DNA of 55,995 bases from Patescibacteria group bacterium (GCA_018818885.1 JAHIRB010000035.1:1-55995); one strand, 5' to 3'. Positions 4,892-30,908 are shown, counted from the stretch's first letter. Program-made: numbers and translations. Notes: a model not told the origin generated them from the sequence alone.

Positions 4892-4897
4892 CGCCTC

Positions 4898-5021: not shown

Positions 5022-5050
5022 TAGAGTATTAAATAATTAAAATAAAAAAT

Positions 5051-5545: not shown

Positions 5546-8500
5546 ATGTCTTTTGTTCATCTTCATACCCATTCACATTATTCTCTTTTGGATGGGTTAG
5601 CAAAAATTGATCAATTAGTTAAAAAAGCTAAGGATTGCAATATGCCTGCTTTAGCTTTAACAGATCATGGTGTTATGTATGGCGCCATTGAATTTTATCA
5701 AAAAGCTACAAAAGCAGGTATAAAACCAATCATCGGGGTAGAAGCCTATGTCGCCAGAAACGGACACAAAAACAAAAGACCAAAAGTTGACGATTCTCCT
5801 TATCACATAGTTTTGCTTGCAAAGAATAATGTAGGGTATCAAAATTTATTAAAACTAGTAACCATCTCTTTTTTGGATGGTTTTTATTATAAACCAAGAA
5901 TAGATTATGAGTTGTTAGAAAAATATCATGAAGGCTTAATAGGATTAACTTCGTGCCTTCAAGGTGAACTGCCTAAACATATTTTTAATGACGATTTAGA
6001 AGCAGCGTCAAAAGCAGCACAACGTTATCTTGATATTTTTGGCAAAGATAATTTTTATTTGGAAGTACAGCACCATTCAGGTATCCCAAAACAAGATATC
6101 GTCAACAAGGGCATATTTAAAATTGGTAAAGAATTGTGCATTCCTATTGTGGCAACCAATGATATTCATTATTTAAATTCAGATGATGATTTTGCCCAAG
6201 ACGTATTATTATGCGTTCAAACTAAGCGAGTAATTACTGACGAAGATAGGATGTCCATGATGGGTGAAGATTTTTCTTTTAGATCACCTCAACGCATGAA
6301 GGATGAATGGAAAGACCATCCAGAGGTAATTGCCAATACTCTTAAAGTGGCAGAAATGTGCAATCTAAAATTGGAGTTTGGTAAAATTTTGTTACCAACA
6401 TTTGAAGTTCCTAGTGGCAAAACAACAGATGAATATTTAAAAGAAGCTTGTCTTCAAGGTTTGGAAAAACGAATGCAGATCAGTGCTTTAGATAAAGCGC
6501 CTAAAGAAGTACACGATCGGCTTAATTATGAATTAGATGTTATTAAGAAGATGGGTTATGCTTCTTATTTTTTAATTACTGCGGATTTTATCAATTGGGC
6601 AAAAATGCAAAAAATAGTTGTTGGTCCTGGCCGTGGTTCTGCTGCTGGAAGCTTAGTTGCTTATCTTACAAATATTACTGATATTAACCCAATTGAGTAT
6701 GAATTAATTTTTGAAAGATTTTTAAATCCAGACAGAATATCTATGCCTGATATAGATACTGATTTTGCAGACTCTCGTCGTGATGAAGTGTTGCGTTATG
6801 TTGAAGATAAATACGGTAAGGATCACGTAGCACAGATTATTACTTTTGGAACTATGGCTGCTCGTGCAGCGATTCGAGACGTAGGACGCGCTTTAAACAT
6901 TCCTTATAGTTATTGTGATCGTGTTGCTAAAATGATACCAATGTTTATGACTTTAAATGAAGCAACAGATTCAGTGCCAGAGCTTAAAGAAATTATGGTA
7001 GAGCCAGATGGTAAAAGATTAATTGAAATCGCCAAGAAGCTCGAAGGCTGTGCGCGTCATGCCTCAACCCACGCCTGTGGTGTTGTGATAACGCCTGAAC
7101 CAATTGATAATTATTGTCCTAGGCAGCGTGGTTCTCAAAATGAAAATGAAATTGTCACACAATACGAAATGCATGCAATTGAAGATCTAGGGCTACTAAA
7201 AATGGATTTTTTAGGTTTAAAAAATTTAACCATTATTGAAAATACCTTAGATATATTAAGGAAAGCTCAAAGTCTAGAAATTGATATTGAAAAAATTCCT
7301 CTAGACGATCAAAAAGCTTACAAATTATTACAAAAGGGCGAAACAACTGGCGTATTTCAACTTGAATCATCTGGCATGAAGAGATTTCTTAAAAAACTTA
7401 AACCTAACGAGTTTGAAGATATAATCGCCATGGTTGCACTTTATCGTCCAGGACCAATGGAATTCATTGATGATTATATTAAGGGCAAACATGGTCAGAT
7501 CATTCCATATTATTTAGATGAACGCTTAGAGCCAATTTTGGAAAAAACTTATGGTATTGCAGTGTATCAAGAGCAGGTTTTTGAAATTGCGCGAGAGTTG
7601 GCTGGTTTTTCGTATTCAGAAGCAGATGTTTTGCGTAAAGCAGTTGGAAAAAAAATTAAAAAGTTACTAGATGAACAAGCAGAAAAAATGATTGATGGTA
7701 TGGTCAAGAACGGTATGAAGTCAACAGTAGCAAAACAAATCTGGGATTTTATTTTACCATTTGCCAGATATGGTTTTAACAGGTCCCACGCAGCATGCTA
7801 CGCCATGATTGCATATCGTACTGCTTATTTAAAAGCACATTATGCAACACAGTTTATGGCATCTTTAATGACAGCAGATCAGGGAAATACAGATCGCATT
7901 GCTGTAGAAGTAGAAGAATGTCGACAAATGAAATTAGAAGTGATGCCACCAGATATTAATGAAAGTTTTTCAACATTTACAGCTGTCTATGAGGGAGATA
8001 AAGTAACTAATAGGATTAGGTTTGGTCTAAATGCAGTCAAGAACCTAGGCCAAAATATCGTAGCAGAAATTATCAAAGAAAGAAAAGAAAACGGTAAATT
8101 CAAAGATCTAAAAGATTTACTTAGTCGTGTCAAAACAAAAGATTTAAACAAAAAATCCCTTGAAGCGTTAATCAAATCAGGTAGTTTAGATACAATGGGT
8201 GAGCGCAATCAAATGATTTACAATGTCGATAAGCTACTGCTTTTTATCAAAAGTATTAACGCAGAGGCAGATAGCCAGCAAGCAAATTTATTTGGTTTGA
8301 TGTCTGTTGAGCAAGGTTTGCCAAAGCTAGTACTTGAACCAATTGAAAGTGTAACAGACAAGCAAAAATTATCATGGGAAAAAGAATTTTTAGGTCTGTA
8401 CGTCACCGCCCATCCAATGCACGAATACACAGACCAACTTCAAGACAAAGTAGTTTCATTAACAGAAATTTATAATAATAAAAATTTATTTCGAAATGGT

Positions 8501-16548: not shown

Positions 16549-17469
16549 ATGAATAAAAAGTCAAATAAAAAAGTAATAGTCATTTTAGGTCCAACAGCAT
16601 CTGGTAAAACAAAACTGGCTGTTAAATTAGCCAGCAAGTTTAATGGTGAAATAATTTCCGCAGATTCACGGCAAGTTTATGTTGATATGGATATTGGAAC
16701 AGGAAAAGATTTAGCAGAATATATAGTCAAGGTACAAGGTACAAGGTACAAGGTACCATATCATTTAATTGATGTCGTTTCGCCTAAATCTCAGTTTACG
16801 GTAGGTGTGTATCAAAAATTAGCCAACATAGCTATCCAGGATGTCATAAAACGTCAAAAATTGCCCATTATATGCGGTGGAACTGCTTTTTATATTCAGT
16901 CAATAGTAGATGGTATTGTATTGCCTCCTAAGACTTCAAGTCAGTTACGTCAAAAATTGAATAAGCTGACATTGAAGCAGCTATTAGTTAAATTGAAAAA
17001 ACTTGACTCAGCATCATATCGTCAAATAGACAAAAAGAACAGAAGGCGAGTGCAGCGTGCAGTTGAGGTGTGCTTGTATACAAGTGAAAAATTTTCATCA
17101 TTTGGCCAAAAACAAAAAATAGACTATGAGTTTTTGATCTTAGGATTAACTTGGCCAAGAGAAGTTTTGAAAAAAAGAAGCACCAAGAGACTAAAAGTCA
17201 GGCTTGAAAAAGAAGGTATGATCAATGAGGTTAAAAGATTGCATAAACAAGGAGTCAGTTGGAAAAGAATGGATGAGTTTGGCTTGGAATATCGCTGGGT
17301 TTCTAGATATCTTCAAAAGAAAATCACATATGACGAAATGTTTGAAGGTTTGAATAATGATATTAATAATTTTGCTAAAAGGCAGATGACGTGGTTTAAA
17401 AAAGATAAGAGGATTAAGTGGGTGAAGAATTATAAATCAGCAAAAAAATTAGTAAAGGAATTTTTATAG
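16549..17469 (+). CDS. miaA: tRNA dimethylallyltransferase
   Basis: GPTASGKT, IISADSRQVY, GGTAFY, AKRQMTWF. Confidence 0.97.
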   Translation: MNKKSNKKVIVILGPTASGKTKLAVKLASKFNGEIISADSRQVYVDMDIGTGKDLAEYIVKVQGTRYKVPYHLIDVVSPKSQFTVGVYQKLANIAIQDVIKRQKLPIICGGTAFYIQSIVDGIVLPPKTSSQLRQKLNKLTLKQLLVKLKKLDSASYRQIDKKNRRRVQRAVEVCLYTSEKFSSFGQKQKIDYEFLILGLTWPREVLKKRSTKRLKVRLEKEGMINEVKRLHKQGVSWKRMDEFGLEYRWVSRYLQKKITYDEMFEGLNNDINNFAKRQMTWFKKDKRIKWVKNYKSAKKLVKEFL

Positions 17470-18276
17470 CGGGCTTTTAATTTTTTTAAGCCGAGGATTG
17501 GTTACCTGTGTATATATTTGAGTGGTTCTGATATTTTGATGGCCAAGCAATTCCTGTACGTAGCGCACGTCAACGCCGTTTTCCAACAGGTGAGTGGCAA
17601 AACTATGGCGCAAACTGTGAAAGGTCGCGTTTTTTTTGATGTTTGCTTTTTTTAACGAATTAGCAAACACTTTTTGTGCGGTTCTTTCTGTAAGTTTGCC
17701 CCCACGCTCACTTGAAAAGATATAGTCATTTTTATCTTTTCCAGCAATAAGATTTTGAAGGTCAATTTTTAATTTTTCAGGCATAATGGTAATTCTGTCC
17801 TTTTTTCCCTTAGCTTGCCTGATGTGAATTGTTAGCTCCAAAAGGTCAAGATCTTGTATCTTAAGATTGATAATTTCGCTTACCCTTAAGCCTGATCCAT
17901 AAGCTAAAGATAAAAGCAGTTTATGTTTGTTATTAGTTGTAACTTCAATAATTTTTTTAATTTCATTTCTTGATAAAACAACAGGCAAGAATTTATTTCT
18001 CTTAGCTATTCTTATCTGAATTGGGGTGAAGGATTTGGCGACGTCACGATAATAAAATTTAATCGCATTCAAATAAAGATTCCGCGTCTGGACCGAGATA
18101 GCCTTTTCTTCAGCATAAAGCAGGAAGTTTTTGATATTTTCCTCATCTAATTTTTCTAAGCCACTTTGCTTAAAGGTAAAATATTCTTTTAAGCCATAAA
18201 CATAGCTTTTTATGGTTTTTTGGCTAAAATTGCGTATTTTTAATTCACGCTTTACTTTCTCTAGTTCTTTTTGCAT
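17464..18276 (-). CDS. IntI-like tyrosine recombinase lacking the IntI-specific insertion
   Basis: N-terminal SAM-like domain (RNFSQKTIKSY); catalytic R (GLRVSE), K (KGKKDR), HSLRH, LGH, Y (TTQIY); C-terminal SPL; 3' end overlaps miaA by 6 nt. Confidence 0.93.
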   Translation of the reverse strand: MQKELEKVKRELKIRNFSQKTIKSYVYGLKEYFTFKQSGLEKLDEENIKNFLLYAEEKAISVQTRNLYLNAIKFYYRDVAKSFTPIQIRIAKRNKFLPVVLSRNEIKKIIEVTTNNKHKLLLSLAYGSGLRVSEIINLKIQDLDLLELTIHIRQAKGKKDRITIMPEKLKIDLQNLIAGKDKNDYIFSSERGGKLTERTAQKVFANSLKKANIKKNATFHSLRHSFATHLLENGVDVRYVQELLGHQNIRTTQIYTQVTNPRLKKIKSPL

Positions 18277-19587: not shown

Positions 19588-19608
19588 AAAATTTTGATAA
19601 ATTACATC

Positions 19609-20526
19609 ATATAACACGGCATAGCCGGTTCGCTCGCTAAATAAAATCATTTTTTTACCACTCATATATGAAAGACGTTATACAATTCATAAAACCGAGA
19701 ATCGTGAAGGTCACTTGCCCAGGTCTCGATTCAAAAGGAACAGGGTTTCTAATATCAGAGGATGGTCACATAGCGACAAATTTCCACGTTATTGGGCAAG
19801 TTGACCAAAACGGACGCGTCAATTATGCAAAACAAATTATTGTCTCAAATTCTATTATTGAAGATGTAGAAGCCAATATTGTTCACAATGTTAAGGATAC
19901 CGCGTCCGTTTTGCACGATTACTCTATAATTAAAATCGACAAAAATGGCCTAGATTATTTTGAGTTAGGTGAAGGAGCAGATGTAGAAGAGGGAGATGAA
20001 GTTTACTTTGGTGGATTCCCAATAACTCAAAATAATCTCACCTCTCATAAAGGGCATGTATCTTCATTACGTGAAGCACCAACGCGTTTTGGTACTGATC
20101 TTCAAAAAGTTATTGATATTGACGGTACCGTTGTTGGCGGTAATTCAGGTGGCCCTTTATTATTCAAAAAGGACGGCAAACACTTAGTCGTTGGAATCAT
20201 TAGTCAACAAGTAGCATACTTATCAGAGGCCTTTCAACATCTAGAGCAATTTCTAAAAGTACAGATGACAAATCCAAATTCAGGAGGTGTTTTTATTGGT
20301 GGGGTTAATCCAAATGCCGCCCTTTTTGAAACTATCAAAACGCTTAAAACTAACTTATCTACCGGTATCGGAACGGCCATTTTTGTCGATTATATGAAGA
20401 CGGAATTTGAGGAAATAAAAAAATGATTTTATTTTTAACGCTCGCTCACCCAAATTTGGCAGTGGTGGGTCGCGTTTGCTCCCAATTTTACCACTGCCAA
20501 ACTTCGGCTATGCCGAAACGTTGTGC
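19609..20526 (+). other. attC-like site 1 (918 bp, carries a gene)
   Basis: ATATAAC-A-CGGCATAGCCG ... CGGCTATGCCG-AAAC-GTTGTGC. Confidence 0.85.
19668..20426 (+). CDS. trypsin-like serine protease inside attC1
   Basis: GTGF, TNFHV (His), DYS (Asp), GGNSGGP (Ser). Confidence 0.9.
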   Translation: MKDVIQFIKPRIVKVTCPGLDSKGTGFLISEDGHIATNFHVIGQVDQNGRVNYAKQIIVSNSIIEDVEANIVHNVKDTASVLHDYSIIKIDKNGLDYFELGEGADVEEGDEVYFGGFPITQNNLTSHKGHVSSLREAPTRFGTDLQKVIDIDGTVVGGNSGGPLLFKKDGKHLVVGIISQQVAYLSEAFQHLEQFLKVQMTNPNSGGVFIGGVNPNAALFETIKTLKTNLSTGIGTAIFVDYMKTEFEEIKK

Positions 20527-20558
20527 GAAATTCGCCAGCAATTTAACTAATAAAACAG

Positions 20559-21068
20559 ATGTCGGAAATTTTTGAAATTAAAGAAAGCGGCAGTTTGGGC
20601 CGAGGATTATTCGCCACAAAGCTAATAAAAAAAGGCGAGAAAATTTTAGAATTCACGGGTCCAATTATCTCTATCAAGGAGGCACTGCAAAAACCACCAG
20701 AAAAATTATCATGCCCTTTGCAAATCGGGCCGACCGAATATATAGACATACAAGAACCTGGCGTTTTAGCTAATCATTCTTGCTCGCCAAATGCTGGCGT
20801 AAAAAATGATCATTACCTTGTGGCTATCCAAGACATCTTACCTGGCAATGAAATTTTTTATGATTATTCAACGACAATGGATGAAGATAATTGGACCCTA
20901 GAATGTAAATGCGGAAGCCCAAACTGCCGCCACATCATAGGAGATTTCCGACATCTTCCGATCGAAGTTCAAAAAAAATATTTAGAATTAAATATAGTCC
21001 AGTCCTTTATTGCGAAAAAATTGCTGGCGAACATCGCACAACACGGCATATCCGGCTCAGAAAATTGA
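20559..21068 (+). CDS. cassette 2: SET-domain protein with post-SET motif
   Basis: GRGLFA, ANHSCSPN, EIFYDY, CKCGSPNCR. Confidence 0.92.
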   Translation: MSEIFEIKESGSLGRGLFATKLIKKGEKILEFTGPIISIKEALQKPPEKLSCPLQIGPTEYIDIQEPGVLANHSCSPNAGVKNDHYLVAIQDILPGNEIFYDYSTTMDEDNWTLECKCGSPNCRHIIGDFRHLPIEVQKKYLELNIVQSFIAKKLLANIAQHGISGSEN

Positions 21069-21164
21069 CACAATTAAATTTAAAAGGGGTGTCAATTTTC
21101 TTCGACCCAAATTTTTGTTCCGCTACGCTACACAAAACCTTCGGATAATGCCGATACGTTATAC
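21036..21164 (+). other. attC-like site 2
   Basis: GCACAAC-A-CGGCATATCCG ... CGGATAATGCCG-ATAC-GTTATAC. Confidence 0.85.
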
Positions 21165-21229
21165 GACATTGCCCTTCGCCCGCCTAGAATGTAAACTTTT
21201 ATATATTTAGCAAATCTTTTCAAATTATT

Positions 21230-22081
21230 ATGATTAAAACCAAAGTCCTAAAGAAGATAAGCCAACAACAACTGGATAAAAAACTAAAGCTCAATATAGA
21301 GAATAAATATGTTGAGGGAGAACAATGGTTCAAAAATCCAGAATTATGGTATGAATTAACAGCTTTTTCAAATCCTTACATAACTGTTTACTCTGAACTT
21401 GTTCTGTTAATTCAAAATCTGAATAAAATTTCTGGATTTTTATCTGACAAAGCTTTAGTTTTTTATGGTCTTGGCACAGGAGATACAGAAATTATTTTAG
21501 TCAATTCTATACTTCAAAAAGAAAAAGTTGTTGATGTTGTTGGCTTAGAAATACAAGCACAATTTATCGATGGATTTATTCAATCCCTTCAAAATATCGC
21601 CCTTGAAAATGATGAATATGAAATAAACTTTTTGGGTATTCATGGATTATTTCAAGATACAAAAAAAGAATATTTGAAAATTAACAATAAAAAACAAGCT
21701 CACATAATTTTAGGAAATACTATAGGTAATTTTAAAGAAGAAGAAATTTTTCAAATCTTCAATAACTTGATGAACAAGGGCGATATTTTACTCGCAGGAT
21801 TTCAAACAGATGAAAACATGAATAAAGTTTTCAAGCAATATTCAGAGAATAAAATGTTTAACAATTTCATTAGAAAAACAATCCCAAATTGCGATGAACT
21901 AAAATGGAAGATCAATCAAGAAGAATCGCAAATTGAAGCATGGAGTGGTGACGTGCTTGTTTTTCATTCAAAAAAGAAAAATCCTGCGAGTATGATAAAT
22001 TGTGTCAAGGACTTTGGTTTTAAAAAGTTGTATAGTACAAACGATACTAATTCTTGTATTCAGATATTTGAAAAGATTTGA
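21230..22081 (+). CDS. cassette 3: SAM-dependent methyltransferase, EgtD-like
   Basis: YGLGTGD motif I; LGNTIGNF; GD.LL.GF. Confidence 0.7.
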   Translation: MIKTKVLKKISQQQLDKKLKLNIENKYVEGEQWFKNPELWYELTAFSNPYITVYSELVLLIQNLNKISGFLSDKALVFYGLGTGDTEIILVNSILQKEKVVDVVGLEIQAQFIDGFIQSLQNIALENDEYEINFLGIHGLFQDTKKEYLKINNKKQAHIILGNTIGNFKEEEIFQIFNNLMNKGDILLAGFQTDENMNKVFKQYSENKMFNNFIRKTIPNCDELKWKINQEESQIEAWSGDVLVFHSKKKNPASMINCVKDFGFKKLYSTNDTNSCIQIFEKI

Positions 22082-22144
22082 ACGGCGGGCTACGGGCAAC
22101 GCTTCGGGGACGCTGCGCTTTCGTCGCTATCGCTCCTCACCCTC

Positions 22145-22240
22145 GTATAACAAGGATTATGAGGAAAATGGCTCAGCTCGCCATTTTCCCAAATTTGCTC
22201 CACTGCGTTCCGCAAACTTCTCATAATCCTGACGTTATCG
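22145..22240 (+). other. attC-like site 3 (shortest, 96 bp)
   Basis: GTATAAC-A-AGGATTATGAG ... CTCATAATCCT-GAC-GTTATCG. Confidence 0.88.
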
Positions 22241-22259
22241 GAAATAATTTTAGGCTCTT

Positions 22260-22694
22260 ATGAACGAAGAACAATCAAAAAAAATTATGAGGCTTGCTAT
22301 TGAGGAGGCAAAGAAATCCTCAGAACCACTGAAGTGTGGTGTTGTCATTGTTAAGAATGAAGAGGTGATTGCGAAAACATACAACTCTCAGCGAGAATCA
22401 AAAAATTCTTCAGCCCATGCTGAAATAAAAGCTTTAGGAGTGGCTGGACAGATAGTGGACAATAAAAATCTTGATGGTTGCGACATTTTTTGTACTTGTG
22501 AACCGTGTATTATGTGTGTTTCCGCAATCACTTTTGCAAAAATTAGGCGTCTTTATTATGGGATTTCTTTGTCTGACGTTTCACCGAAAGATAAACGAAT
22601 AGATATCAGTATTGATGAATTTTTCCAAAAATCGCCTCATAAATTCGAAGTGATAAAGAATTTTTTAGAAGAAGAATGCAAGGTACTAATTTGA
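22260..22694 (+). CDS. cassette 4: zinc-dependent nucleoside deaminase
   Basis: HAE and PCIMC zinc motifs. Confidence 0.92.
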   Translation: MNEEQSKKIMRLAIEEAKKSSEPLKCGVVIVKNEEVIAKTYNSQRESKNSSAHAEIKALGVAGQIVDNKNLDGCDIFCTCEPCIMCVSAITFAKIRRLYYGISLSDVSPKDKRIDISIDEFFQKSPHKFEVIKNFLEEECKVLI

Positions 22695-22711
22695 TCGCCT
22701 AAAATTACATC

Positions 22712-22851
22712 CGATAACAGCGTGTATGAGGTTCAAAAAAAGTGCGTTAATAATACCTAAAGGCTGCACTTTTTCTTTCACCCAAATTTCGCCTCCTATA
22801 TAATTAAAATAAGGAAGTCGGCGAAACTTCTCATACACGCAAACGTTAGGC
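22712..22851 (+). other. attC-like site 4
   Basis: CGATAAC-A-GCGTGTATGAG ... CTCATACACGC-AAAC-GTTAGGC. Confidence 0.9.
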
Positions 22852-22879
22852 GAAATAAGATTTAAACAAAAATTATTTT

Positions 22880-23149
22880 ATGGCAACAAAACCTTGGACA
22901 AGAAATCAAAAAATTGCTGTATGGGGGGTTATAGCCGTAATCATTATGGGTGTACTCGGATGGTTTATTAAAATAGATTTAGAAATATCTTATATACAAA
23001 GTCAAATTGAACAAATTCAGATAGATAAAGCGAACATAAAATCATTAGTTGTTGATGAATTTTTAAAAACCTGCCCACCAGGAACAACTACTTCGACTAT
23101 TGAATTTGTCGATGAAGGAATTAAATTTGGATGTATAATCCCAGAATAA
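22880..23149 (+). CDS. cassette 5: single-TM hypothetical protein
   Basis: 89-aa ORF filling the cassette. Confidence 0.75.
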   Translation: MATKPWTRNQKIAVWGVIAVIIMGVLGWFIKIDLEISYIQSQIEQIQIDKANIKSLVVDEFLKTCPPGTTTSTIEFVDEGIKFGCIIPE

Positions 23150-23190
23150 TTTTTGTTTAAATCTTACTCTCCGCTCCGCCCTATCGGGTC

Positions 23191-23733
23191 GCCTAACACG
23201 GGCTAGCCGGTTCGCAGTATGCACTTTGAAACAAACATTTTTAGGAAGCTGCCCAAATCAACCAAAGGAGGCCTACTATGATTTTGGGATTAACAAAAGA
23301 AGATTTAGAGAAACCAACAATTACAGAGGTAGAAGAAGTTCGCGTACATGACGGAAGGGGGGGTGCTGCCACAGTACGAGTCGGCGATCAAGTTGAAGTT
23401 TTCAAACCAGAAGAAAATAAATTGACTCTGGCCTATCTCGGCCCCGGGCCATACACTATTGAATGGACGGCGCAATGGAGATGTGGCCGAGATTTCCTTC
23501 AACTGACAACGCCGACAAAAGGTAAGGGCAAAGGCGTTAACGCTTCCAAATTTCAAATCGTCTCATAGTTTCATTATGGACGCACAAAAACGGGAAGGCA
23601 TACTTTCGCCTTCCCGCTTCCTAAAAATGTTTGTTTATTTATCACGCTCACCCAAATCCCACACCTATTTTAGTAAATTTCAAATAATAGCACAAAATAT
23701 GTGAGGGACTTCGGCTAGCCCGAAACGTTATGT
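23191..23733 (+). other. attC-like site 5 (543 bp, carries a gene)
   Basis: GCCTAAC-A-CGGGCTAGCCG ... CGGCTAGCCCG-AAAC-GTTATGT. Confidence 0.88.
23278..23568 (+). CDS. hypothetical protein inside attC5
   Basis: AAGGAGG SD; enclosed by a perfect 21-bp IR (23229-23249/23616-23636). Confidence 0.8.
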   Translation: MILGLTKEDLEKPTITEVEEVRVHDGRGGAATVRVGDQVEVFKPEENKLTLAYLGPGPYTIEWTAQWRCGRDFLQLTTPTKGKGKGVNASKFQIVS

Positions 23734-23770
23734 GAAATTTATTTTTGTTTTTATCTAATAAACACGTAAT

Positions 23771-24202
23771 ATGAATAAATCTTTTTCTCTTTTTCTCGAA
23801 CAACTAAAAAAACTTAATCTACCAAAAGGCAAATTCGCTATTTTCGGAAGTGGCCCCCTGGGTATAAGAAATATCAGAGACACCCATGATCTTGATCTTA
23901 TTGTAGATGAATCGCTTTTTGACGAGTATAAAAATATGCCGAGCTGGGAGTTTAAAAGTTTTGACAGAGATGATCGTCATGTTGAGATGATTGAAAATAG
24001 CGGAATTGAGTTCTACAAAACATGGGGGCCGGGCGATTGGGATACTCGCCAGTTAATTGATAATGCGGAAATTATTGATAATTTGCCTTTTGTAAAATTA
24101 GAGGAAGTAAAAAAGTGGAAGAAAATATCAGGAAGAGAAAAAGATTTAAAAGATGTCCAACTAATAAACGAGTATTTGGAAAAGTCACAAAAACAAAAAT
24201 AA
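23771..24202 (+). CDS. cassette 6: putative minimal nucleotidyltransferase-fold protein
   Basis: FGSGPL...DTHDLDL (GS plus DxD). Confidence 0.6.
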   Translation: MNKSFSLFLEQLKKLNLPKGKFAIFGSGPLGIRNIRDTHDLDLIVDESLFDEYKNMPSWEFKSFDRDDRHVEMIENSGIEFYKTWGPGDWDTRQLIDNAEIIDNLPFVKLEEVKKWKKISGREKDLKDVQLINEYLEKSQKQK

Positions 24203-24207
24203 ACATC

Positions 24208-24337
24208 ACATAACAAAGAGTATGCGGTTCAGGAATTTTTCATTTATAATTTAATAAGGAGTAAAAAATTCCTTCACCCAAATTTTTTGTTCCGCTATCG
24301 CTACACAAAAAACTTCGCATACTCTTAAACGTTATGT
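24208..24337 (+). other. attC-like site 6
   Basis: ACATAAC-A-AAGAGTATGCG ... CGCATACTCTT-AAAC-GTTATGT. Confidence 0.9.
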
Positions 24338-24435
24338 GAAATATTGACTAGATTATTCTGGCATAAAATGTTTTTGCCGATAAAAAAGTCAGTGCGATTT
24401 TAAAACTGATAATCAAATAATTCCGTCAATACATC
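24332..24435 (+). other. cassette 7 body: no ORF
   Basis: ~100 bp between TTATGTGA and TCACATAA, bounded by TATTGAC/GTCAATA. Confidence 0.8.
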
Positions 24436-24585
24436 ACATAACACTGTGTATCTGGTTCCGTAAAAGAGAAAAATTAAATAATTCTCTATTTTTAAAAAGC
24501 CCTTTTTCAATTTTTTTTGACAAAGAAAAAACCGCCTCAACCTTTGTGGTATATTGGCGGTAAGCAGTCGGTCTGCTCAGTCCTT

Positions 24586-24762
24586 TTACTTTGTGCGAAA
24601 GAGCGGGCAAATCAGGTCGTGAAATTCTTTCAGTGATTCGTTCAACATGGTATGCCAAACGAATATTCCAACCTCGCGCTCTTTCAAAAGAGCAACCAAC
24701 TTTTCCGCCCTTTCCTGCAACGCGTCATGCGTAAGTTCTGTTTTTTGCTCGTTTTCAGCCAT
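24586..24762 (-). CDS. 58-aa hypothetical protein inside attC7 (below the ORF-track cutoff)
   Basis: MAENEQKTELTHDALQERAEKLVALLKEREVGIFVWHTMLNESLKEFHDLICPLFRTK; GAAAGGAG SD, own promoter, terminator ACCGCC/GGCGGT. Confidence 0.75.
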   Translation of the reverse strand: MAENEQKTELTHDALQERAEKLVALLKEREVGIFVWHTMLNESLKEFHDLICPLFRTK

Positions 24763-24820
24763 TTCTACTTCTCCTTTCAGGTTAGTTGGTAATATTTAAT
24801 ACCAAATTTGGTATCGTTGC

Positions 24821-24849
24821 ATTGTAGCAGAAAACTGTCCCTCTGTCAA
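24821..24849 (-). promoter_or_regulatory. promoter of antisense module in attC7
   Basis: TTGACA-17-TACAAT with TGn extension. Confidence 0.85.
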
Positions 24850-25033
24850 GTCCAGCGACCAAAAAAAATTGAAAAAGGGCTTTAATAAGGTAAATTATTT
24901 AATTTTTCTTTTTTACTCCACCCAAATTTTTGCCTTTCCTTTCTTTTAGAATATAATAAGGAAGAAAGGCAAAAACTTCAGATACACAGAAACGTTAGGC
25001 GAAATTAATTTATTAACCTTTAATCAAAATCAT

Positions 25034-25249
25034 ATGGAAAAATTTGAAAGAGCTCCACAAGAGCCACAATCAACGGAAGAGGCAGTATCACGTTTTCTTG
25101 ACGGAGATAATAATGCCGCAGTGTCTTTTTTGCGAAATCACCGCGATGAAATCGGTGAATTCTGTTTACAAATCCGCGACACATACCAAAAAAATGACAC
25201 TGCGACTCCTTTTTTGGAATTGGCAAAGTTAATTGATTCGTTGCTATAA
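25034..25249 (+). CDS. cassette 8: hypothetical protein
   Basis: 71-aa ORF filling the cassette. Confidence 0.7.
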   Translation: MEKFERAPQEPQSTEEAVSRFLDGDNNAAVSFLRNHRDEIGEFCLQIRDTYQKNDTATPFLELAKLIDSLL

Positions 25250-25270
25250 ACGGTTAATAAATTAACTATC

Positions 25271-25411
25271 GCCTAACAGCGTGTATGAGGTTCAAGAAAA
25301 AGTGCGTTAATAATTTTCAGCGGTTGCACTTTTTCTTTCACCCAAATTTCGCCTCCTCTATAATGAAAATAAGGAAGTCGGCGAAACTTCTCATACACGC
25401 AAACGTTATGT
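25271..25411 (+). other. attC-like site 8 (near-copy of site 4)
   Basis: GCCTAAC-A-GCGTGTATGAG ... CTCATACACGC-AAAC-GTTATGT. Confidence 0.9.
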
Positions 25412-25523
25412 GAAATAGCCAGAAATTTTTTTATTATTTTTTAGATTTTTTTTGGCAATTTATTTCGGTCGAACATAGCTTGTGATATAATTTAATCAGC
25501 TTAATAATTTAACCAATAAAATT

Positions 25524-25802
25524 ATGAAAAACCCAGAAATGAGTCCTGAGCAACCAAAAAAGTGGGAAACTCTAACCACTGAGCAAATAATTGAGAGGAT
25601 AAAATCAAACTCTGAAGCACAAGAAAAAGCTTTTGGTAGTGTTCTTACTGAAGAACAGTTTAAAGAAAGATTTCCTCATAATTCAGCAAAAGTCGAAGAT
25701 ATTCAAAATATGATGCTAGCGTTAGGGTTAGAGCTTCCCACTCAAGAAGATGTAGAGCAAATGATGCAACAAGGCGAAGAAAATGATCAGGAAGAAAAAT
25801 AA
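25524..25802 (+). CDS. cassette 9: acidic hypothetical protein
   Basis: 92-aa ORF; TGnTATAAT upstream. Confidence 0.75.
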   Translation: MKNPEMSPEQPKKWETLTTEQIIERIKSNSEAQEKAFGSVLTEEQFKERFPHNSAKVEDIQNMMLALGLELPTQEDVEQMMQQGEENDQEEK

Positions 25803-25846
25803 ATTGCCAAAAAATACATTAAGGAAAAGAAATTTCTGTCTACATC

Positions 25847-26350
25847 ACATAACATGTTGTATCTGGCTACGCTAAATAATAATTTATTTTCTCTACTTAT
25901 ATGGGTATCAAAGTTGAATTTAACCCCGACCTCGCTTTAAGGAATATTTCCGAATTTAAAAACGGTAATCGTAAAATTGAAGAATGTATTCCTGAAAGCC
26001 TTGAGGAAGGCAAAACATATCCGTTTTTAAAATGCGATCAACGTAATTACTGGCTTTATGGTGCAATACCTTTAATCGAAACCAAAGGCAATGAGATTTT
26101 ATCACGTCCTAAGGCTAAAATTATTCTGCTGGAAGCCACGCACTTTGCTGTTGATAACGTAACGTATACTAAAGGCTTTTACAAAGTAATTGAGGTCTTT
26201 AAGGATGACGATATACATTTTGAATGTTTTGATCCGGTGGGAACGAGAAAATAAATTATTATTTAGCTCCGCCCAAATTTCTTCTTCTTTTTTATTATTA
26301 ATTTAATAATGAAGCGAAGAAGAAACTTCAGATACAACAAAACGTTATGT
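25847..26350 (+). other. attC-like site 9 (504 bp, carries a gene)
   Basis: ACATAAC-A-TGTTGTATCTG ... CAGATACAACA-AAAC-GTTATGT. Confidence 0.88.
25901..26254 (+). CDS. hypothetical protein inside attC9
   Basis: 117-aa ORF enclosed by a perfect 23-bp IR (25871-25893/26245-26267). Confidence 0.8.
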   Translation: MGIKVEFNPDLALRNISEFKNGNRKIEECIPESLEEGKTYPFLKCDQRNYWLYGAIPLIETKGNEILSRPKAKIILLEATHFAVDNVTYTKGFYKVIEVFKDDDIHFECFDPVGTRK

Positions 26351-26383
26351 GAAAAACAATAAATTCATAATAACATATAAATA

Positions 26384-27034
26384 ATGGGGTTCAATAAAAA
26401 GGAAGTTAATAAACTATTAGCATCTTGCCACAGAAGATGCTGCATTTGCCATAAATTCTGCGGGGTCAAAATGGAAACTGATCATATCGAACAAAAATTC
26501 ATCTCGCAGAATGATTCTATTGAAAATGCAATTCCAGTCTGTTTTGAATGTCATGCCGAAATCCATCTTTATAATGACAAACATCCACGTGGCAGAAAAT
26601 TTTCATCCGAAGAGTTGCATGAGCATAAGCGTCAATGGCTGGAAATATGCGAAAAAAATCCTGAGATGTTTATTCAACCACTCCAAAGAAGTGATGTAGG
26701 TCCTCTTCAGTCGTTGGCAGATGAACTAAAATTCAATGTAGCTATCAAACAGTATCAAGATTCTAATGTTGGATATTTCTGTCCTTTTGAGGTTAAGCAG
26801 TTTGACAGATCATTAAATGATGGCTATATCTCTATATTAAATGATAGTTTAGCAGATTCCTTAACTAACACTTATATTCAAATTAAATTGGCAAATACAG
26901 CACTCAATGCTATTACTTCGGCGCCTTGTGAAAGAGATCGAGGATTAGCCAAAAATAGACTCCAAGATGTATTAAGAATAATGGGTACAAAGATTGATGA
27001 AACTTATAAATTGCTTAAAAATCAATTAGAGTGA
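26384..27034 (+). CDS. cassette 10: HNH endonuclease domain protein
   Basis: CCIC...DHI...N.I.VCFECH..IH. Confidence 0.85.
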   Translation: MGFNKKEVNKLLASCHRRCCICHKFCGVKMETDHIEQKFISQNDSIENAIPVCFECHAEIHLYNDKHPRGRKFSSEELHEHKRQWLEICEKNPEMFIQPLQRSDVGPLQSLADELKFNVAIKQYQDSNVGYFCPFEVKQFDRSLNDGYISILNDSLADSLTNTYIQIKLANTALNAITSAPCERDRGLAKNRLQDVLRIMGTKIDETYKLLKNQLE

Positions 27035-27100
27035 ATTTATTGTTCTTCGCCTAACACGGGTTAGCCGGTTCACGCTGGCTAAATAAAATTATTCAATATT

Positions 27101-27676
27101 ATGAAAACTATTATAAAATTAATAAATCTAGCGGCCCTACTTGGGTCAGTTGCATGGCTATCCAAAGATACTAATTGGGAACCATTACTATTATTTCTTG
27201 CCTTATTAGCCGCATTCTTAGGGCAGGAAATCTTACCAACAATTAAAAAAGTGAACAAAGAAGACAAAAAGCTAGGAGAATTATTTCTTAAAGAATTCCC
27301 CTCAAACGGTAAAAGTTGCTTATTTTTAAAAGAACATGAGCTACACAATCCATTCCGCCAATCACAACTTGATGAAATTGAAAAATTCTTAAGTGAATGG
27401 GATAACACCGAACATGAGTTCTTAAATAAAAAATTAGAAAGAATAAAAAAAGAACTACTCTCTAAAATTAATAAATTTTTATCTTCGTTGTTTACTTTGG
27501 TAAGAGCCCATGATAGTGATGTTAATATATTAACAACCAAGCTAAGCGGGGCGTACAATAAAGAGGTAGAAGAAGAAAATGATTTAAAAATAGCTGGACT
27601 AAACAAAATGGCAACTGATATATATAAAAAACATCAAATACTAACAAAAAAGATAAAAAGAATCTTAAATTCTTAG
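27101..27676 (+). CDS. N-terminally membrane-anchored hypothetical protein inside attC10
   Basis: 191 aa, two N-terminal hydrophobic segments; 20-bp IR 27081-27100/27679-27698. Confidence 0.8.
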   Translation: MKTIIKLINLAALLGSVAWLSKDTNWEPLLLFLALLAAFLGQEILPTIKKVNKEDKKLGELFLKEFPSNGKSCLFLKEHELHNPFRQSQLDEIEKFLSEWDNTEHEFLNKKLERIKKELLSKINKFLSSLFTLVRAHDSDVNILTTKLSGAYNKEVEEENDLKIAGLNKMATDIYKKHQILTKKIKRILNS

Positions 27677-27729
27677 CTAATATTGAATAATTTTATTTTT
27701 AACGCTTGCTAATAAAATAATTTAAAAAT

Positions 27730-28023
27730 ATGGAAAATCAAATATTTAAAAAATTTACCTTATGGGATTCAGTAGTTTTACTGGTTTTAATACTTATTGC
27801 TATACCATCAATACTTGGAGTATTAGAAGCTGTAACTGGTCAAGACTATTATCAAATGACGGTTTATCTTTTTATATCGGCTATAATCTTGTTTGGAATT
27901 TTCAAATATTCAAAAAAGTTGGTGAGCAATATAAAAAATGCAGAAACTAAAAAAAGAGCAACTATAATATCAGCAGTATTGATAATCATTACCCTGCTAT
28001 TCTTTTTCAGACTATTTTTTTAA
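27730..28023 (+). CDS. 3-TM hypothetical protein inside attC10
   Basis: 97 aa; 18-bp IR 27711-27728/28017-28034. Confidence 0.75.
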   Translation: MENQIFKKFTLWDSVVLLVLILIAIPSILGVLEAVTGQDYYQMTVYLFISAIILFGIFKYSKKLVSNIKNAETKKRATIISAVLIIITLLFFFRLFF

Positions 28024-28217
28024 ATTATTTTATTTAACGCGCTCACCCAAATCCCGCCATGGGCGGGACTTCGGCTAACCCGAAACGTTAGGTAACATTT
28101 TATTCAAAATCTTTTAAATTTAATAATAGAGCCCTTTTGAAATTTTTTAAGAAAAAAGAAAGGGCTCCGCTCACTATTTTTAGTGGGGAGCCCTGATGAG
28201 CGGAGGACGCACGACAG

Positions 28218-28655
28218 TCACTTGAGGCGCGAGACTGCCTCGACGCCACTCATAGTTCTGCCAGTGGCGCAATCCATCACGAAGCTGCCGACTGACGACC
28301 CCGCCTTGATCATGGCGAGCCACTGGTCGTAGGTCGCCGTCGCGTACGGTCCGGCCGAGGCCTTGTTGTCGGCGAGCCAGCGTGCGAGCGCTTCGGGCGT
28401 TTCCATCACAGGCGAGATTGGTGTCCCTTCCGTGACGGACTCATACATCTGGTAGTGCGTGCGTTCCGACTCCGGCCACTGCGGCATGACGTCGCATCCG
28501 TAGTTCGGCGGGTCGTTGTTGAGCCAGCCGTCACGTAGTCCCTCCACAATCTCTTCCTCGTCGTACGGGAAGTGCTCGTGCATGGGGATGTGGTGGCCGT
28601 TCTCGTCCTTGGGGTGTTCCCAGTTTGCGGGAACTCTGCGAGCTTCTGTACTCAT
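28218..28655 (-). CDS. cassette 11: antisense, GC-rich hypothetical protein
   Basis: 145 aa; GAGGAGG SD; 42/60 and 38/60 G+C in two lines counted; GGGCTCC/GGAGCCC terminator. Confidence 0.85.
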   Translation of the reverse strand: MSTEARRVPANWEHPKDENGHHIPMHEHFPYDEEEIVEGLRDGWLNNDPPNYGCDVMPQWPESERTHYQMYESVTEGTPISPVMETPEALARWLADNKASAGPYATATYDQWLAMIKAGSSVGSFVMDCATGRTMSGVEAVSRLK

Positions 28656-28717
28656 GGCTTTGTCCTCCTCTTTGGTTGTTTTATGTGCAATTTAACGCCA
28701 AAATTAGCGTTCATATT

Positions 28718-28746
28718 AGTATAGCATAAAACTGATAACCTGTCAA
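28718..28746 (-). promoter_or_regulatory. promoter of antisense module in cassette 11
   Basis: TTGACA-17-TATACT with TGn extension. Confidence 0.85.
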
Positions 28747-28807
28747 GCTCGCGACCAAAAAAATTTCAAAAAGGCTCTAATAATAAGGTATTTTTGAATA
28801 AAACATC

Positions 28808-30169: not shown

Positions 30170-30251
30170 AATTATTACATCGTATAACACGGCGTATACG
30201 ACATTTGTTTATCCACTAAAACCCGGGGGAGTCGTTCGCGAACGGCTTCTC

Positions 30252-30300
30252 TTGACAAAAATAATCAGGCTGATATAATTGTAATACAATGTATTACAAT
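30252..30300 (+). promoter_or_regulatory. TA promoter and operator
   Basis: TTGACA-16-TGnTATAAT followed by palindrome ATTGTAATACA-A-TGTATTACAAT (30278-30300). Confidence 0.85.
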
Positions 30301-30312
30301 TAATCTATTTCT

Positions 30313-30528
30313 ATGAGACAAGTAATTAACATCTCCTTACCTAAACAAACAGCCCATGAAGTCAAATCTGCCGTTAAAAGAGGCAATTATCTCAGCGTCA
30401 GTGAGTTTTTTCGTGATTTATTAAGAGATTGGCAGGCAGGTAATCTTCTTAATGAATTAAACCAAAGTAGAAAAGAAATTAAAGCGGGCAAGGGCAAAAC
30501 CTTAAAATCCTTAAAGGATTTAAGGTAA
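30313..30528 (+). CDS. ribbon-helix-helix antitoxin (ParD/CopG-like)
   Basis: VINISLP...G.Y.SVSEFFRDLLR; upstream of RelE-like toxin. Confidence 0.85.
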   Translation: MRQVINISLPKQTAHEVKSAVKRGNYLSVSEFFRDLLRDWQAGNLLNELNQSRKEIKAGKGKTLKSLKDLR

Positions 30529-30534
30529 TTTTTT

Positions 30535-30792
30535 ATGGAAATTATTTATTCCTCAAAGTTTGCCCGTGAATATAAGAAACTGCCAAAAAAAGTAAAGGCA
30601 ACGGCGGAAGAGCACGAAACAATATTCAGACAGAACCCCCGAGATCCAAGATTAAACACGCACAAACTTCATGGCAGACTTAAAGAATTCTGGTCTTTTT
30701 CAATCGGGAACAAATACCGAATTATTTTTGAATTTGGCAATGACACTACAATTTGCTTGCATTTAGTCGGCAATCATGATATTTACCAATAA
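30535..30792 (+). CDS. RelE-superfamily mRNA interferase toxin (YafQ/YoeB-like)
   Basis: YSSKFAREYKKL, HKLHGRLKEFWSFSI, YRIIF, VGNHDIY. Confidence 0.9.
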   Translation: MEIIYSSKFAREYKKLPKKVKATAEEHETIFRQNPRDPRLNTHKLHGRLKEFWSFSIGNKYRIIFEFGNDTTICLHLVGNHDIYQ

Positions 30793-30908
30793 ACAAACGT
30801 CGCATACGCTGGAACGTTAGGCGAACTTTATATGATCCTGATGTTATGCAATTACATAATTTAACACGAAAAAAGAATTTTTAGAATGTAGATTATAATC
30901 TAGAAATT

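What the first reader, a model, noticed from the sequence alone, without database searches (positions are those of the whole stretch)
19631..28043. Second-level sub-array inside attC arm A, bounded by CGCTnGCT repeats
attC1 reads GGTT-CGCTCGCT-[IR gene IR]-TTAA-CGCTCGCT-CACCC, an exact 8-bp direct repeat (19631, 20439). attC10 holds two units in tandem: CGCTGGCT (27073), gene, CGCTTGCT (27703), gene, CGCGCT (28038). The units start GCTAA(A)TAAAAT and end ATTTTATT(TT)TAA; attC9 cargo starts GCTAAATAA. Arm A looks like an iteratively filled insertion site with its own end signature.
Basis: partly seen in the sequence, partly recalled or inferred. Interest (0 to 1): 0.76.

Follow-up and report, generated by a model that had tools for sequence, protein, structure and literature searches.

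The report
Second-tier gene slots inside attC hairpins
In an integron-like gene-cassette array of an ultra-small (CPR/Patescibacteria) bacterium, one hairpin arm of the recombination sites holds extra gene modules with their own conserved ends, one per site as a rule and two in tandem here; I found no description of such a nested layer of gene capture for integrons.

Summary
Each arm-A gene is bracketed by a private 19-23-nt inverted repeat with shared ends: GCNNGC-T-AAATAAAAT ... ATTTTATTT-(T/C)TTAAC-GCNNGC.

One metagenome scan gave about 50 attC-like sites with the same end signature around other genes; 40 distinct units were parsed. One site frame (flanks 91% identical) carries 12 different cargos, 11 of them unrelated. 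A relative holds unit 10b alone, and homology with the window begins exactly at C|GCTTGC (27703). The window therefore has unit 10a as an extra 630-nt insert. The protease unit of attC1 occurs in four different site frames.

Three qualifications apply:
- The "8-bp direct repeat" is a conserved quasi-palindromic core. Elsewhere its left copy complements the right copy in about two thirds of units and matches it in about one third. It flips between close relatives.
- No empty site was found.
- The tandem is unique among 401 genomes of the class.

Best reading: a second tier of cassette-like modules, exchanged at C|GCNNGC on a hairpin that copies the design of the main site. The enzyme and the DNA strand involved are inferred, not shown.

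The parts
17464..18276 (-). Array-linked tyrosine recombinase (270 aa), IntI/XerA-like, without the IntI-specific insert
   Evidence: Pfam Phage_integrase 1.1e-44. NCBIfam XerA_Arch 225 bits (cut-off 220). TIGR02249 integron integrase 223 bits, below its cut-off of 265, matched in two stretches. Orthologues of 55-71% identity lie beside arrays in G387, G204, G176 and G096.
19608..20527 (+). attC1, a first-tier attC-like site: R'' CATATAAC, A, L'' 19617-19627, GTT, arm A (19631-20446), CACCCAAAT 20447-20455, arm B 20456-20501, CTT, L' 20505-20515, AAAC, R' GTTGTGCG
   Evidence: The bottom strand, with the gene replaced by GAAA, folds as a three-way junction: -45 kcal/mol, z = -7.9.
19631..19638 (+). 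Left core of arm A in attC1 (CGCTCGCT), same sense as the right core ('direct' state)
   Evidence: The 93%-identical unit in L107 has GCGAGC here, within 50 nt that are otherwise identical.
19639..20438 (+). Unit 1: IR arm 19639-19657, trypsin-like protease gene 19668-20426, IR arm 20416-20434 (includes the stop codon), unpaired TTAA(C)
   Evidence: Homologous units lie in four other site contexts. Homologues of 61-65% identity sit in methylase-protease-helicase operons without repeats.
20439..20446 (+). Right core of arm A in attC1 (CGCTCGCT)
   Evidence: GCT(C/T)GC-TCACCCAAAT is the conserved right base of unit-bearing arms in 68 metagenome stretches.
25871..26267 (+). attC9 arm-A unit: 23-nt perfect IR (GCTAAATAATAATTTATTTTCTC and its complement) around gene 25901-26254. 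It is a variant of the signature without the TTAAC spacer.
27048..28094 (+). attC10, a first-tier site whose arm A holds two units in tandem: R'' CGCCTAAC, L'' 27057-27067, GTTCA, arm A, CACCCAAAT 28044-28052, arm B 28053-28068, L' 28072-28082, AAAC, R' GTTAGGTA
   Evidence: The bottom strand, with both genes replaced by GAAA, folds as a four-way junction with two arm-A hairpins: -54.8 kcal/mol, z = -11.1.
27071..27702 (+). Unit 10a with its leading core: AC-GCTGGC-T, IR 27081-27101, gene 27101-27676 (191 aa), IR 27678-27698, TTAA(C). This segment is absent from the one-unit relative L113.
   Evidence: Alignment. A 65% homologue sits alone in arm A of another site (L117); a 70% homologue lies outside arrays (L112).
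27703..28037 (+). Unit 10b with its leading core: C-GCTTGC-T, IR 27711-27731, gene 27730-28023 (97 aa), IR 28014-28034, TAA(C)
   Evidence: In L113, L114 and L115 (84% aa) the same unit follows GGTTC directly. The 85% nucleotide identity starts at C|GCTTGC.
28038..28043 (+). Resident right core of attC10 (CGCGCT)
   Evidence: The pairing of left GCTTGC with right GCGC(GC) recurs in five sites of the GGGCTAGCC frame that carry different genes (L039, L071, L113, G003, window).

Best explanation
Hairpin arm A, part of the variable terminal structure of this CPR family of attC-like sites, is a second-tier cargo slot.

A unit is a discrete, promoter-less module with these parts in order:
- a 6-bp quasi-palindromic core, GCNNGC;
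- one unpaired T;
- a conserved stem start, AAATAAAAT, running into a private stem of about 10 nt;
- the gene;
- the complementary private stem plus ATTTTATTT;
- a 4-5-nt unpaired spacer, (T/C)TTAAC;
- then the next core.

Units are added or swapped at the junction C|GCNNGC (GGTTC|GC... on the left, TTAAC|GC... on the right). I infer that this is site-specific recombination on the folded strand. The unit hairpin repeats the design of the first-tier site: outer helix, a 1-nt versus 4-5-nt spacer ending in AAC, inner helix, terminal structure. The array's own IntI/XerA-like recombinase could therefore act on it.

The private inverted repeat zips the arm shut, so the host site can still fold around 0.2-1 kb of cargo. 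A fresh insertion would leave two same-sense cores, the state of attC1 and attC10 here. Later template switching within the quasi-palindrome would convert the left core to the complement and lengthen the stem.

Shown: the module anatomy, the conserved ends, the breakpoint, one unit versus two, one unit in several frames, one frame with many cargos, and the two core states.

Inferred: the enzyme, the strand, the order of events, and the role of the stem.
For: 1. End signature around other genes. There are 68 metagenome stretches with TTAACGC(N0-2)GCTCACCCAAAT, about 50 of them true sites. Sites also occur in G034, G393, G387 and G003.
2. Private stems. In 40 parsed units, own-arm pairing scores 17.8, against 10.7 +/- 2.6 for arms of different units.
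3. One unit versus two. L113-115 carry unit 10b alone as GGTTC-GCTTGC-TAATAAAAT. The alignment with the window is 85% identical from C|GCTTGC (27703) onwards. The window has 630 extra nt, which are unit 10a. The L box shows a compensatory change, GGGTTAGCC/GGCTAACCC against GGGCTAGCC/GGCTAGCCC.
4. One frame, many cargos. Twelve sites share their left flank and a right flank of median 91% identity. Their unit interiors are no more alike than shuffled DNA (0.52 in both cases). Only one protein pair is related, at 36%.
5. One cargo, many frames. The protease unit lies in frames with L'' GGCATAGCC (window, L107), GACATATCTGG (L108) and GGGCTATAAGA (L100), behind unrelated upstream genes.
6. The core has two discrete states, 26 complementary and 13 same-sense. 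It flips inside otherwise identical flanks in two pairs of close relatives: window TC against L107 GA, and L067 against L086.
7. The spacer asymmetry of 1 nt against 5 nt ending in AAC mirrors the first tier, which has A against AAAC before GTT.
8. The stem is built on the gene. The protease C-terminus ...EFxxIKK* is conserved in homologues outside arrays, so the right arm is the native gene end. TGA/TCA in the window against TAA/TTA in L108 is a compensatory pair.
9. Mismatches in the stems favour C.A/A.C (14) over G.T/T.G (4), p = 0.03. C.A on the top strand reads as a G.T wobble on the bottom strand, so this points to bottom-strand folding.
10. There is no promoter-like site at the unit starts.
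Against: - No empty single-core site (GGTTC-GCNNGC-TCACCCAAAT) was found in 401 genomes of the class. Short arms ending in GCTCACCCAAAT are small G+C-rich hairpins.
- The tandem junction occurs only in this genome among 401, and in none of 98 loci fetched before that check. Repeated filling is therefore rare.
- Two thirds of units have complementary cores, which plain insertion between direct cores does not predict. The proposed later conversion is conjecture.
- No circular or excised form has been seen.
- The recombinase lacks the IntI insert that reads extrahelical bases in classical integrons.
- The outer helix of a unit (GCGAGC/GCTCGC) has no AAC/GTT pair like the first-tier R box.
- 'Conserved frame, variable gene' is also what ordinary cassettes with uniform attC sites show. 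On its own it does not prove exchange at arm A.
Confidence: 0.6

Rival explanations
1. There is no dedicated second tier. Arm A is simply a long hairpin of the site, and GCNNGC is its G+C clamp. Genes got into the loop rarely and by unknown means. The one-versus-two difference, the frame swaps and the chimeric sites come from homologous or microhomology-mediated recombination between the 20-40 nt of conserved sequence that flank every unit.
For: - Complementary cores with covariation occur in 26 of 40 units.
- No empty site was found, and the tandem is unique.
- The conserved flanks (GGTTCGC.AGCTAAATAAAAT, ATTTTATTTTTAACGCTCGCTCACCCAAAT) offer short homology.
Against: - The homology breakpoint between the window and L113 lies exactly at the core junction, with at most about 10 nt of shared sequence to support strand exchange.
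- A third of units have same-sense cores that cannot close a stem.
- The core centre flips as a block inside perfectly conserved flanks.
- Twelve cargos, 11 of them unrelated, sit in one frame with clean boundaries.
Confidence: 0.2
2. The sites act as duplex DNA, as in Xer/pdif modules. Each boundary is an ordinary double-stranded tyrosine-recombinase site of about 11-6-11 bp (TTATTTTTAAC-GCTCGC-TAAATAAAATC in a circular unit). A Xer-type enzyme would recombine it, and the array would be a set of modules between inversely oriented sites, with arm-A units as a further class of module.
For: - The recombinase scores as XerA-type and lacks the IntI insert.
- The genome has two more Xer-like recombinases.
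- The core is a 6-bp quasi-palindrome, the size of a Xer central region.
- Site interiors bearing a unit associate with unrelated upstream genes, as free modules would.
- Some sites join an L'' to an L' that does not match it: G034, G393, G188, G176 and L073.
Against: - The L boxes and the private stems vary freely in sequence but stay complementary. This is what folding requires, not what a protein-binding arm requires.
- Most unit-bearing sites keep a matched L''/L' pair.
- All sites and nearly all genes share one orientation.
- The two arms of the putative 11-6-11 site are only weakly alike.
Confidence: 0.1
3. The inverted repeats work in RNA. They would seal each reading frame in a stem for processing, stability or insulation of the transcript, and the shared ends would be incidental.
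For: - The stems abut the start codon and often include the stop codon.
- All units are co-oriented with the array.
Against: - Mismatches favour C.A on the coding strand (14 against 4), which is the wrong wobble for the mRNA.
- The idea does not explain the cores, the breakpoint, or cargo exchange in a fixed frame.
Confidence: 0.05
4. The units are small transposable elements with terminal inverted repeats, and CGCTCGCT is an 8-bp target-site duplication. Alternatively, the tandem is an assembly artefact.
For: attC1 shows an exact 8-bp direct repeat outside inverted ends.
Against: - The 'duplication' is the same conserved motif at the same position of the site in every case. In most units it is inverted rather than direct.
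- There is no transposase, and the signature does not flank any gene elsewhere in the genome. The own-genome motif counts turned up no second array, and the R'-motif hits checked on C43 and C48 were not attC-like.
- The inner parts of the repeats are private to each gene.
- The shared ends (about 20 nt) are shorter than usual assembly k-mers, and both units have relatives with the same ends.
Confidence: 0.03

Closest known systems
Integron attC sites with large branched variable terminal structures (e.g. Vibrio cholerae repeats, VCR)
   Same: - Imperfect inverted repeats R''-L''...L'-R' with AAC...GTT.
- Structure is conserved and sequence is not; spacers are unpaired and asymmetric.
- A co-oriented, promoter-less cassette array lies beside a divergent tyrosine recombinase.
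- The terminal structure is the tolerant part of the site: replacing the 65-bp VTS of VCR2/1 with a triplet barely changes recombination (PMC2727003).
   Different: - Here the terminal structure holds whole genes (0.2-1.0 kb against at most about 65 bp).
- It has its own conserved ends, cores and private stems.
- It shows insertion and exchange of modules at a defined junction.
- The recombinase lacks the IntI-specific insert.
pdif (Xer) modules of Acinetobacter plasmids
   Same: Gene modules without their own recombinase are bounded by inversely oriented tyrosine-recombinase sites. Modules travel with their inner arms. The host's Xer-type enzymes are presumed to act. (Own knowledge: Blackwell and Hall 2017.)
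   Different: - pdif sites are conserved 28-bp duplex sites with no private, covarying stems.
- They have no nesting and no three-way-junction frame.
- The modules here are all co-oriented in a chromosomal array.
Group IIC-attC introns
   Same: A mobile element that specifically targets the attC hairpin. (Own knowledge: Leon and Roy 2009.)
   Different: Those are ribozyme and reverse-transcriptase retroelements inserted next to the stem. Here there is no intron RNA or RT, and the cargo consists of ordinary small genes.
Quasipalindrome template-switch mutation
   Same: Several bases change at once so that an imperfect inverted repeat becomes perfect. This is the change seen between the window (GCTCGC) and L107 (GCGAGC). 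(Own knowledge: Ripley 1982; Lovett laboratory.)
   Different: It is offered only as the process that could convert same-sense cores and lengthen the stems. It was not tested.

Membership tests
Integron (IntI, attI, attC cassettes) | Integrase of the IntI family with the IntI-specific additional domain | tested here: not met
   TIGR02249 scores 223 bits, below its cut-off of 265, and matches in two stretches. PRK15417 scores 141 against a cut-off of 435. The best equivalog is XerA_Arch at 225 (cut-off 220). The protein has 270 aa.
Integron (IntI, attI, attC cassettes) | Cassettes end in imperfect inverted repeats R''-L''...L'-R' with conserved AAC...GTT. The distal part of each R' matches the R'' of the next cassette. 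| tested here: met
   There are 13 such sites in the window. The L boxes covary. GTTGTGCGAAATTCGCCAGCAA (20520-) pairs with TTGCTGGCGAACATCGCACAAC at the end of the next cassette. The family occurs in 112 of 401 genomes of the class.
Integron (IntI, attI, attC cassettes) | attC of about 57-141 bp whose terminal structure is non-coding | tested here: not met
   Seven of the 13 sites span 0.4-1.05 kb and contain genes.
Integron (IntI, attI, attC cassettes) | Recombination of the folded bottom strand, cleavage at G|TT, resolution by replication | not testable with these tools
   There are only indirect hints: the bias of stem mismatches toward C.A on the top strand and strong predicted folds of the bottom strand.
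Xer/pdif module arrays | Conserved 11-6-11 duplex sites in alternating orientation, with arm sequence conserved for protein binding | tested here: not met
The inner arms (the L boxes and the private stems) differ between sites but remain complementary within a site.
Transposons with terminal inverted repeats and target-site duplication | Variable target sequence duplicated on insertion; a transposase or an autonomous partner; many target sites | tested here: not met
   The flanking motif is always the same conserved core at the same place in the site, and it is inverted in 26 of 40 units. Own-genome motif counts found no second array, and the R'-motif hits checked on C43 and C48 were not attC-like.
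Second-tier unit as an attC-like hairpin (proposed here) | Outer helix, asymmetric unpaired spacer ending in AAC on the 3' side, inner helix, terminal structure; exchange at the junction after AAC | tested here: inconclusive
   The geometry is met: 1 nt against 5 nt in most of the 41 arm pairs aligned, compared with A against AAAC in the first tier. One breakpoint maps to TTAAC|GC. The outer helix is absent in the same-sense third of units, and no enzyme data exist.

The most novel reading that the evidence does not exclude
The system is recursive. A hairpin built like the main recombination site sits inside that site, and the same insert-less IntI/XerA-like recombinase recombines it, so cassettes can be loaded within cassettes.

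New units would be born when a gene from an ordinary operon is taken up. The protease, for example, has relatives in methylase-protease-helicase operons. Template switching would then copy the gene's own 3' end into a complementary left arm.

If so, the genesis of cassettes and attC-like sites could be read directly from sequence in this system. That genesis is an open question for integrons.
Probability: 0.25. Interest if true: 0.9.

Novelty: new variant of a known kind. Interest (0 to 1): 0.74.

Why it matters
Integron theory treats the attC site as a non-coding hairpin of 57-141 bp and the cassette as one gene plus one site. Detection tools are built on that assumption. Here the tolerant tip of the hairpin is itself a loading bay with its own end signature, a defined junction, and population-level evidence of insertion and exchange.

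This matters for four reasons:
- Standard searches would miss or mis-split these cassettes in a large, little-studied part of the bacterial tree. The site family is in 112 of 401 genomes of one CPR class.
- Two or three genes can travel as one cassette.
- The private stems are built on the native ends of captured genes, and the core has two states. Both give concrete sequence handles on how cassettes and their sites arise, which is unresolved for integrons.
- A structure-specific site that tolerates about 1 kb of cargo and is used by a small recombinase without the IntI insert could be a useful recombination tool.

Tried and rejected
- Transposon with inverted ends and an 8-bp target duplication. 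Rejected because the 'duplication' is a fixed core motif that is mostly inverted elsewhere.
- Second array or stray units in the window's own genome. Motif counts found no second array, and the R'-motif hits checked on C43 and C48 were not attC-like. One further attC copy lies on the short contig C14.
- Scan of genome contigs. I compensated with class-wide searches and the metagenome scan.
- Empty site GGTT(N1-31)GCTCACCCAAAT. Only small G+C-rich hairpins were found, and no single-core site.
- Tandem junction in 401 genomes and in the 98 loci fetched by then. It occurs only in the window.
- Viral contigs. No site with the signature.
- Promoter or terminator at the unit ends. Nothing above the shuffled expectation.
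- Literature. Four full-text searches found nothing on genes or nested cassettes inside attC sites, and nothing on CPR integron-like arrays.
- Cassette = upstream gene plus unit-bearing site travelling together. Not supported: related units follow unrelated upstream genes.

Full report
**Setting**

The window is contig C12 of a 1.35-Mb, 34% G+C genome in 51 contigs. A same-order relative is labelled Candidatus Buchananbacteria, so this is a CPR/Patescibacteria genome.

A 270-aa tyrosine recombinase lies at 17464-18276 on the minus strand. It scores as XerA-type at 225 bits (cut-off 220). Against the integron-integrase model TIGR02249 it scores 223 bits, below the cut-off of 265, in two stretches. 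It therefore lacks the IntI-specific insert.

After a DUF711 gene there are 13 long attC-like sites between 19.6 and 30.8 kb. Their common plan is:
- R'' (…YAAC), then A, then L'' (11 nt), then GTT(C);
- arm A;
- CACCCAAAT;
- arm B;
- (A)CTT, then L', then AAAC, then R' (GTTRNGNG…).

The L boxes differ between sites but stay complementary within a site. The distal part of each R' matches the R'' of the next cassette, which is the logic of an integron.

The site family is in 19 of 61 relatives and in 112 of 401 genomes of the class. Orthologues of the recombinase lie beside arrays in several of those genomes. In seven of the 13 sites, arm A contains one or two genes.

**The observation**

- The gene in attC1 is bracketed by a 19-nt perfect inverted repeat.
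- The genes in attC10 are bracketed by 21-nt repeats (100% and 95%).
- The gene in attC9 is bracketed by a 23-nt perfect repeat.

CGCTNGCT occurs six times on the + strand, against 1.2 expected. Four of the six are at the arm boundaries.

With the genes replaced by a GAAA loop, the bottom strands fold as predicted. attC1 gives a three-way junction (-45 kcal/mol, z = -7.9). attC10 gives a four-way junction with two arm-A hairpins (-54.8 kcal/mol, z = -11.1).

**Does the signature occur around other genes? Yes, widely**

Relatives G034, G393, G387 and G003 carry unrelated small genes in arm A with the same ends.

One scan of metagenome contigs for TTAACGC(N0-2)GCTCACCCAAAT returned 68 stretches. 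About 50 are true sites, and each has a small gene in arm A.

From 40 distinct units the consensus is:

GGTTC – GCNNGC – T – AAATAAAAT + private stem – gene – private stem + ATTTTATTT – (T/C)TTAAC – GCNNGC – TCACCCAAAT.

The private parts are specific to each unit. Own-arm pairing scores 17.8, against 10.7 +/- 2.6 for arms taken from different units. The left spacer is 1 nt and the right spacer 5 nt in most units.

**Does unit number vary? Yes, at the predicted boundary**

Unit 10b has an 84%-identical homologue in three metagenome contigs (L113-115). There it sits alone in arm A, directly after GGTTC: GGTTC-GCTTGC-TAATAAAATAATTTAAAAAT-ATG.

A global alignment of window 27035-28115 with L113 is 85% identical from C|GCTTGC (27703) to the end of the unit. 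Upstream of that point L113 has L''-GGTT, whereas the window has the end of unit 10a. So the window carries an extra 630 nt, AC-GCTGGC-…10a…-TTTTTAAC, inserted between GGTTC and the core of 10b.

The two sites look like versions of one frame. Their L boxes differ by a compensatory pair. Arm B differs, however: it is short in the window and long in L113.

Unit 10a also has a 65% homologue that sits alone in arm A of another site (L117), and a 70% homologue outside any array (L112).

The tandem junction itself is rare. It is absent from the 98 loci fetched by then and from 400 other genomes of the class.

**One frame with many cargos, and one cargo in many frames**

Twelve sites share the attC1-type frame. 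Their left flank is AACACGGCATAGCCGGTTC and their right flank has a median identity of 91%. Their unit interiors are no more alike than shuffled DNA (0.52 in both cases). Only one pair of proteins is related, at 36%.

Conversely, the protease unit of attC1 occurs in several contexts:
- L107 (93% aa): the same frame as the window.
- L100 (83%): L'' GGGCTATAAGA and a short arm B.
- L108/L109 (83%): L'' GACATATCTGG.
- L099 (88%): the left half of the site is deleted.

These copies lie behind unrelated upstream genes.

Homologues at 61-65% identity lie in methylase-protease-helicase or type I specificity-subunit contexts, with no repeats around them. The gene was therefore taken from an ordinary operon.

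Its C-terminus …EFxxIKK* is conserved in those homologues. So the right arm, which contains the last codons and the stop, is the native gene end, and the left arm was made to match it. The window has TGA paired with TCA, and L108 has TAA paired with TTA.

**What the 'direct repeat' really is**

Both ends of arm A carry C-GC-NN-GC-T. The outer GC dinucleotides are self-complementary, so only the central NN tells a direct repeat from an inverted one.

Across the 40 units:
- 26 have a left core that complements the right one (GCGAGC…GCTCGC, or GCAAGC…GCTTGC).
- 13 have the same sense on both sides (GCTCGC…GCTCGC, or GCTTGC…GCGCGC). This group includes attC1 and all the cores of attC10.
- 1 is ambiguous.

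Within the complementary class, the left and right centres covary: AA goes with TT and GA with TC (Fisher p = 5e-4). The same-sense class is not noise either: 7 of 25 units have exactly TC on the left (p = 7e-4).

The state changes between close relatives inside otherwise identical flanks of 40-50 nt. The window has TC where L107 has GA, and L067 has GTTCGC where L086 has GCGAGC.

In the protease family, three of the four informative copies are same-sense and one tip is complementary. That suggests the change runs from same-sense to complementary.

**Mechanism (inferred)**

The unit hairpin repeats the plan of the main site:

| Tier | Outer helix | 5' spacer | 3' spacer | Inner helix | Cargo |
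|---|---|---|---|---|---|
| 1 | R box | A | AAAC | L box | arms A and B |
| 2 | core helix | T | TTAAC | AAATAAAAT stem | private stem plus gene |

In tier 1 the exchange point is at AAAC|GTT. In tier 2 the one mapped breakpoint is at TTAAC|GC.

I therefore propose that units are inserted and swapped by site-specific recombination at C|GCNNGC on the folded strand, possibly by the array's own recombinase. The genome has two other tyrosine recombinases.

Insertion would leave same-sense cores. Template switching within the quasi-palindrome could later make the left core complementary and lengthen the stem into the gene's end.

The stem would serve to keep the host site foldable. The bias of stem mismatches toward C.A (14) over G.T (4) on the coding strand (p = 0.03) fits folding of the bottom strand and argues against a role in the mRNA. 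The unit starts have no promoter-like site.

**Weak points**
- No empty single-core site was found.
- The tandem is unique so far.
- The conversion of the core is conjecture.
- 'Same frame, different gene' is also true of ordinary cassettes with uniform attC sites, so on its own it does not prove exchange at arm A.
- Some unit-bearing sites join a non-matching L'' and L' (G034, G393, G188, G176, L073), and site interiors associate with unrelated upstream genes. Both leave room for a reading in which duplex Xer-type sites bound freely exchanging modules.

**Comparison with what is known**

The closest known objects are attC sites with large branched terminal structures. In VCR2/1 the 65-bp terminal structure can be replaced by a triplet with little effect on recombination (PMC2727003). 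That fits the idea that this part of a site can carry cargo.

Four full-text searches found no description of genes, or of a second layer of modules, inside attC sites, and none of CPR arrays.

Earlier notes of this scan report genes nested in such hairpins in other CPR genomes. One of them read a similar flanking repeat as a mere stem base.

This window adds the following:
- the tandem;
- the mapped insertion breakpoint;
- the two-state core;
- the census of 40 parsed units among about 50 sites that share one end signature.

I file it as a new variant of the integron kind. It is not a member of the IntI integrons, because the integrase and site-length criteria are not met.

Noticed in passing
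window 24496-24890 and 28130-28790: Two minus-strand genes (24586-24762, and the G+C-rich 28218-28655) each lie in a related shell bounded by GAGCCCTTTTGAAATTTTTT… and its complement. One shell is inside arm A of attC7 and the other is in the ordinary cassette slot. A similar G+C-rich minus-strand insert sits in arm A in G176 (L016, about 5560-5900).
   Followed up: no
window 22800-22822, 24240-24262, 25360-25382 and other loops of gene-less arms: The loops of arm A and arm B in gene-less sites repeatedly read like a -10 box followed by a ribosome-binding site (e.g. TTTATAATTTAATAAGGAG, TATATAATTAAAATAAGGAAG). They might drive or translate the next cassette.
   Followed up: no
L101-L106, L110 (metagenome contigs): Homologues of the attC1 protease at 61-65% identity form a conserved operon: N6/N4 DNA methylase, trypsin-like protease, ResIII helicase/endonuclease, PD-(D/E)XK protein. 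One instead follows a type I specificity subunit. These look like restriction or defence systems that include a protease.
   Followed up: partly
L009 (G387 C2), minus strand about 4830-5210: A gene sits in arm B rather than arm A: a short arm-A hairpin, a degenerate core, then TTACAAAA…gene…TTTTGTAA-CTTC. Both arms can therefore carry cargo.
   Followed up: no
L099 740-760: In an 88% relative of the protease unit, the left half of the site (L'', GGTTC, core, left arm) is deleted. The R'' box ACATCGCCTAAC runs straight into the ATG, which looks like decay or fixation of a unit.
   Followed up: no
window 30182-30822: The last site (attC13) has an RHH antitoxin and a RelE/ParE-like toxin pair (30313-30528, 30535-30792) between its L-type arms, and no CACCCAAAT core.
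   Followed up: no
G000 contig C14, 3340-3500: A further complete attC-like site lies at the end of a 3.6-kb contig of the same genome. The array may continue there, or a second small array may exist.
   Followed up: no
window 24340-24436: There is a cassette slot with no gene: about 100 nt between R' of attC6 and R'' of attC7. Its site, attC7, carries cargo in arm A.
   Followed up: no
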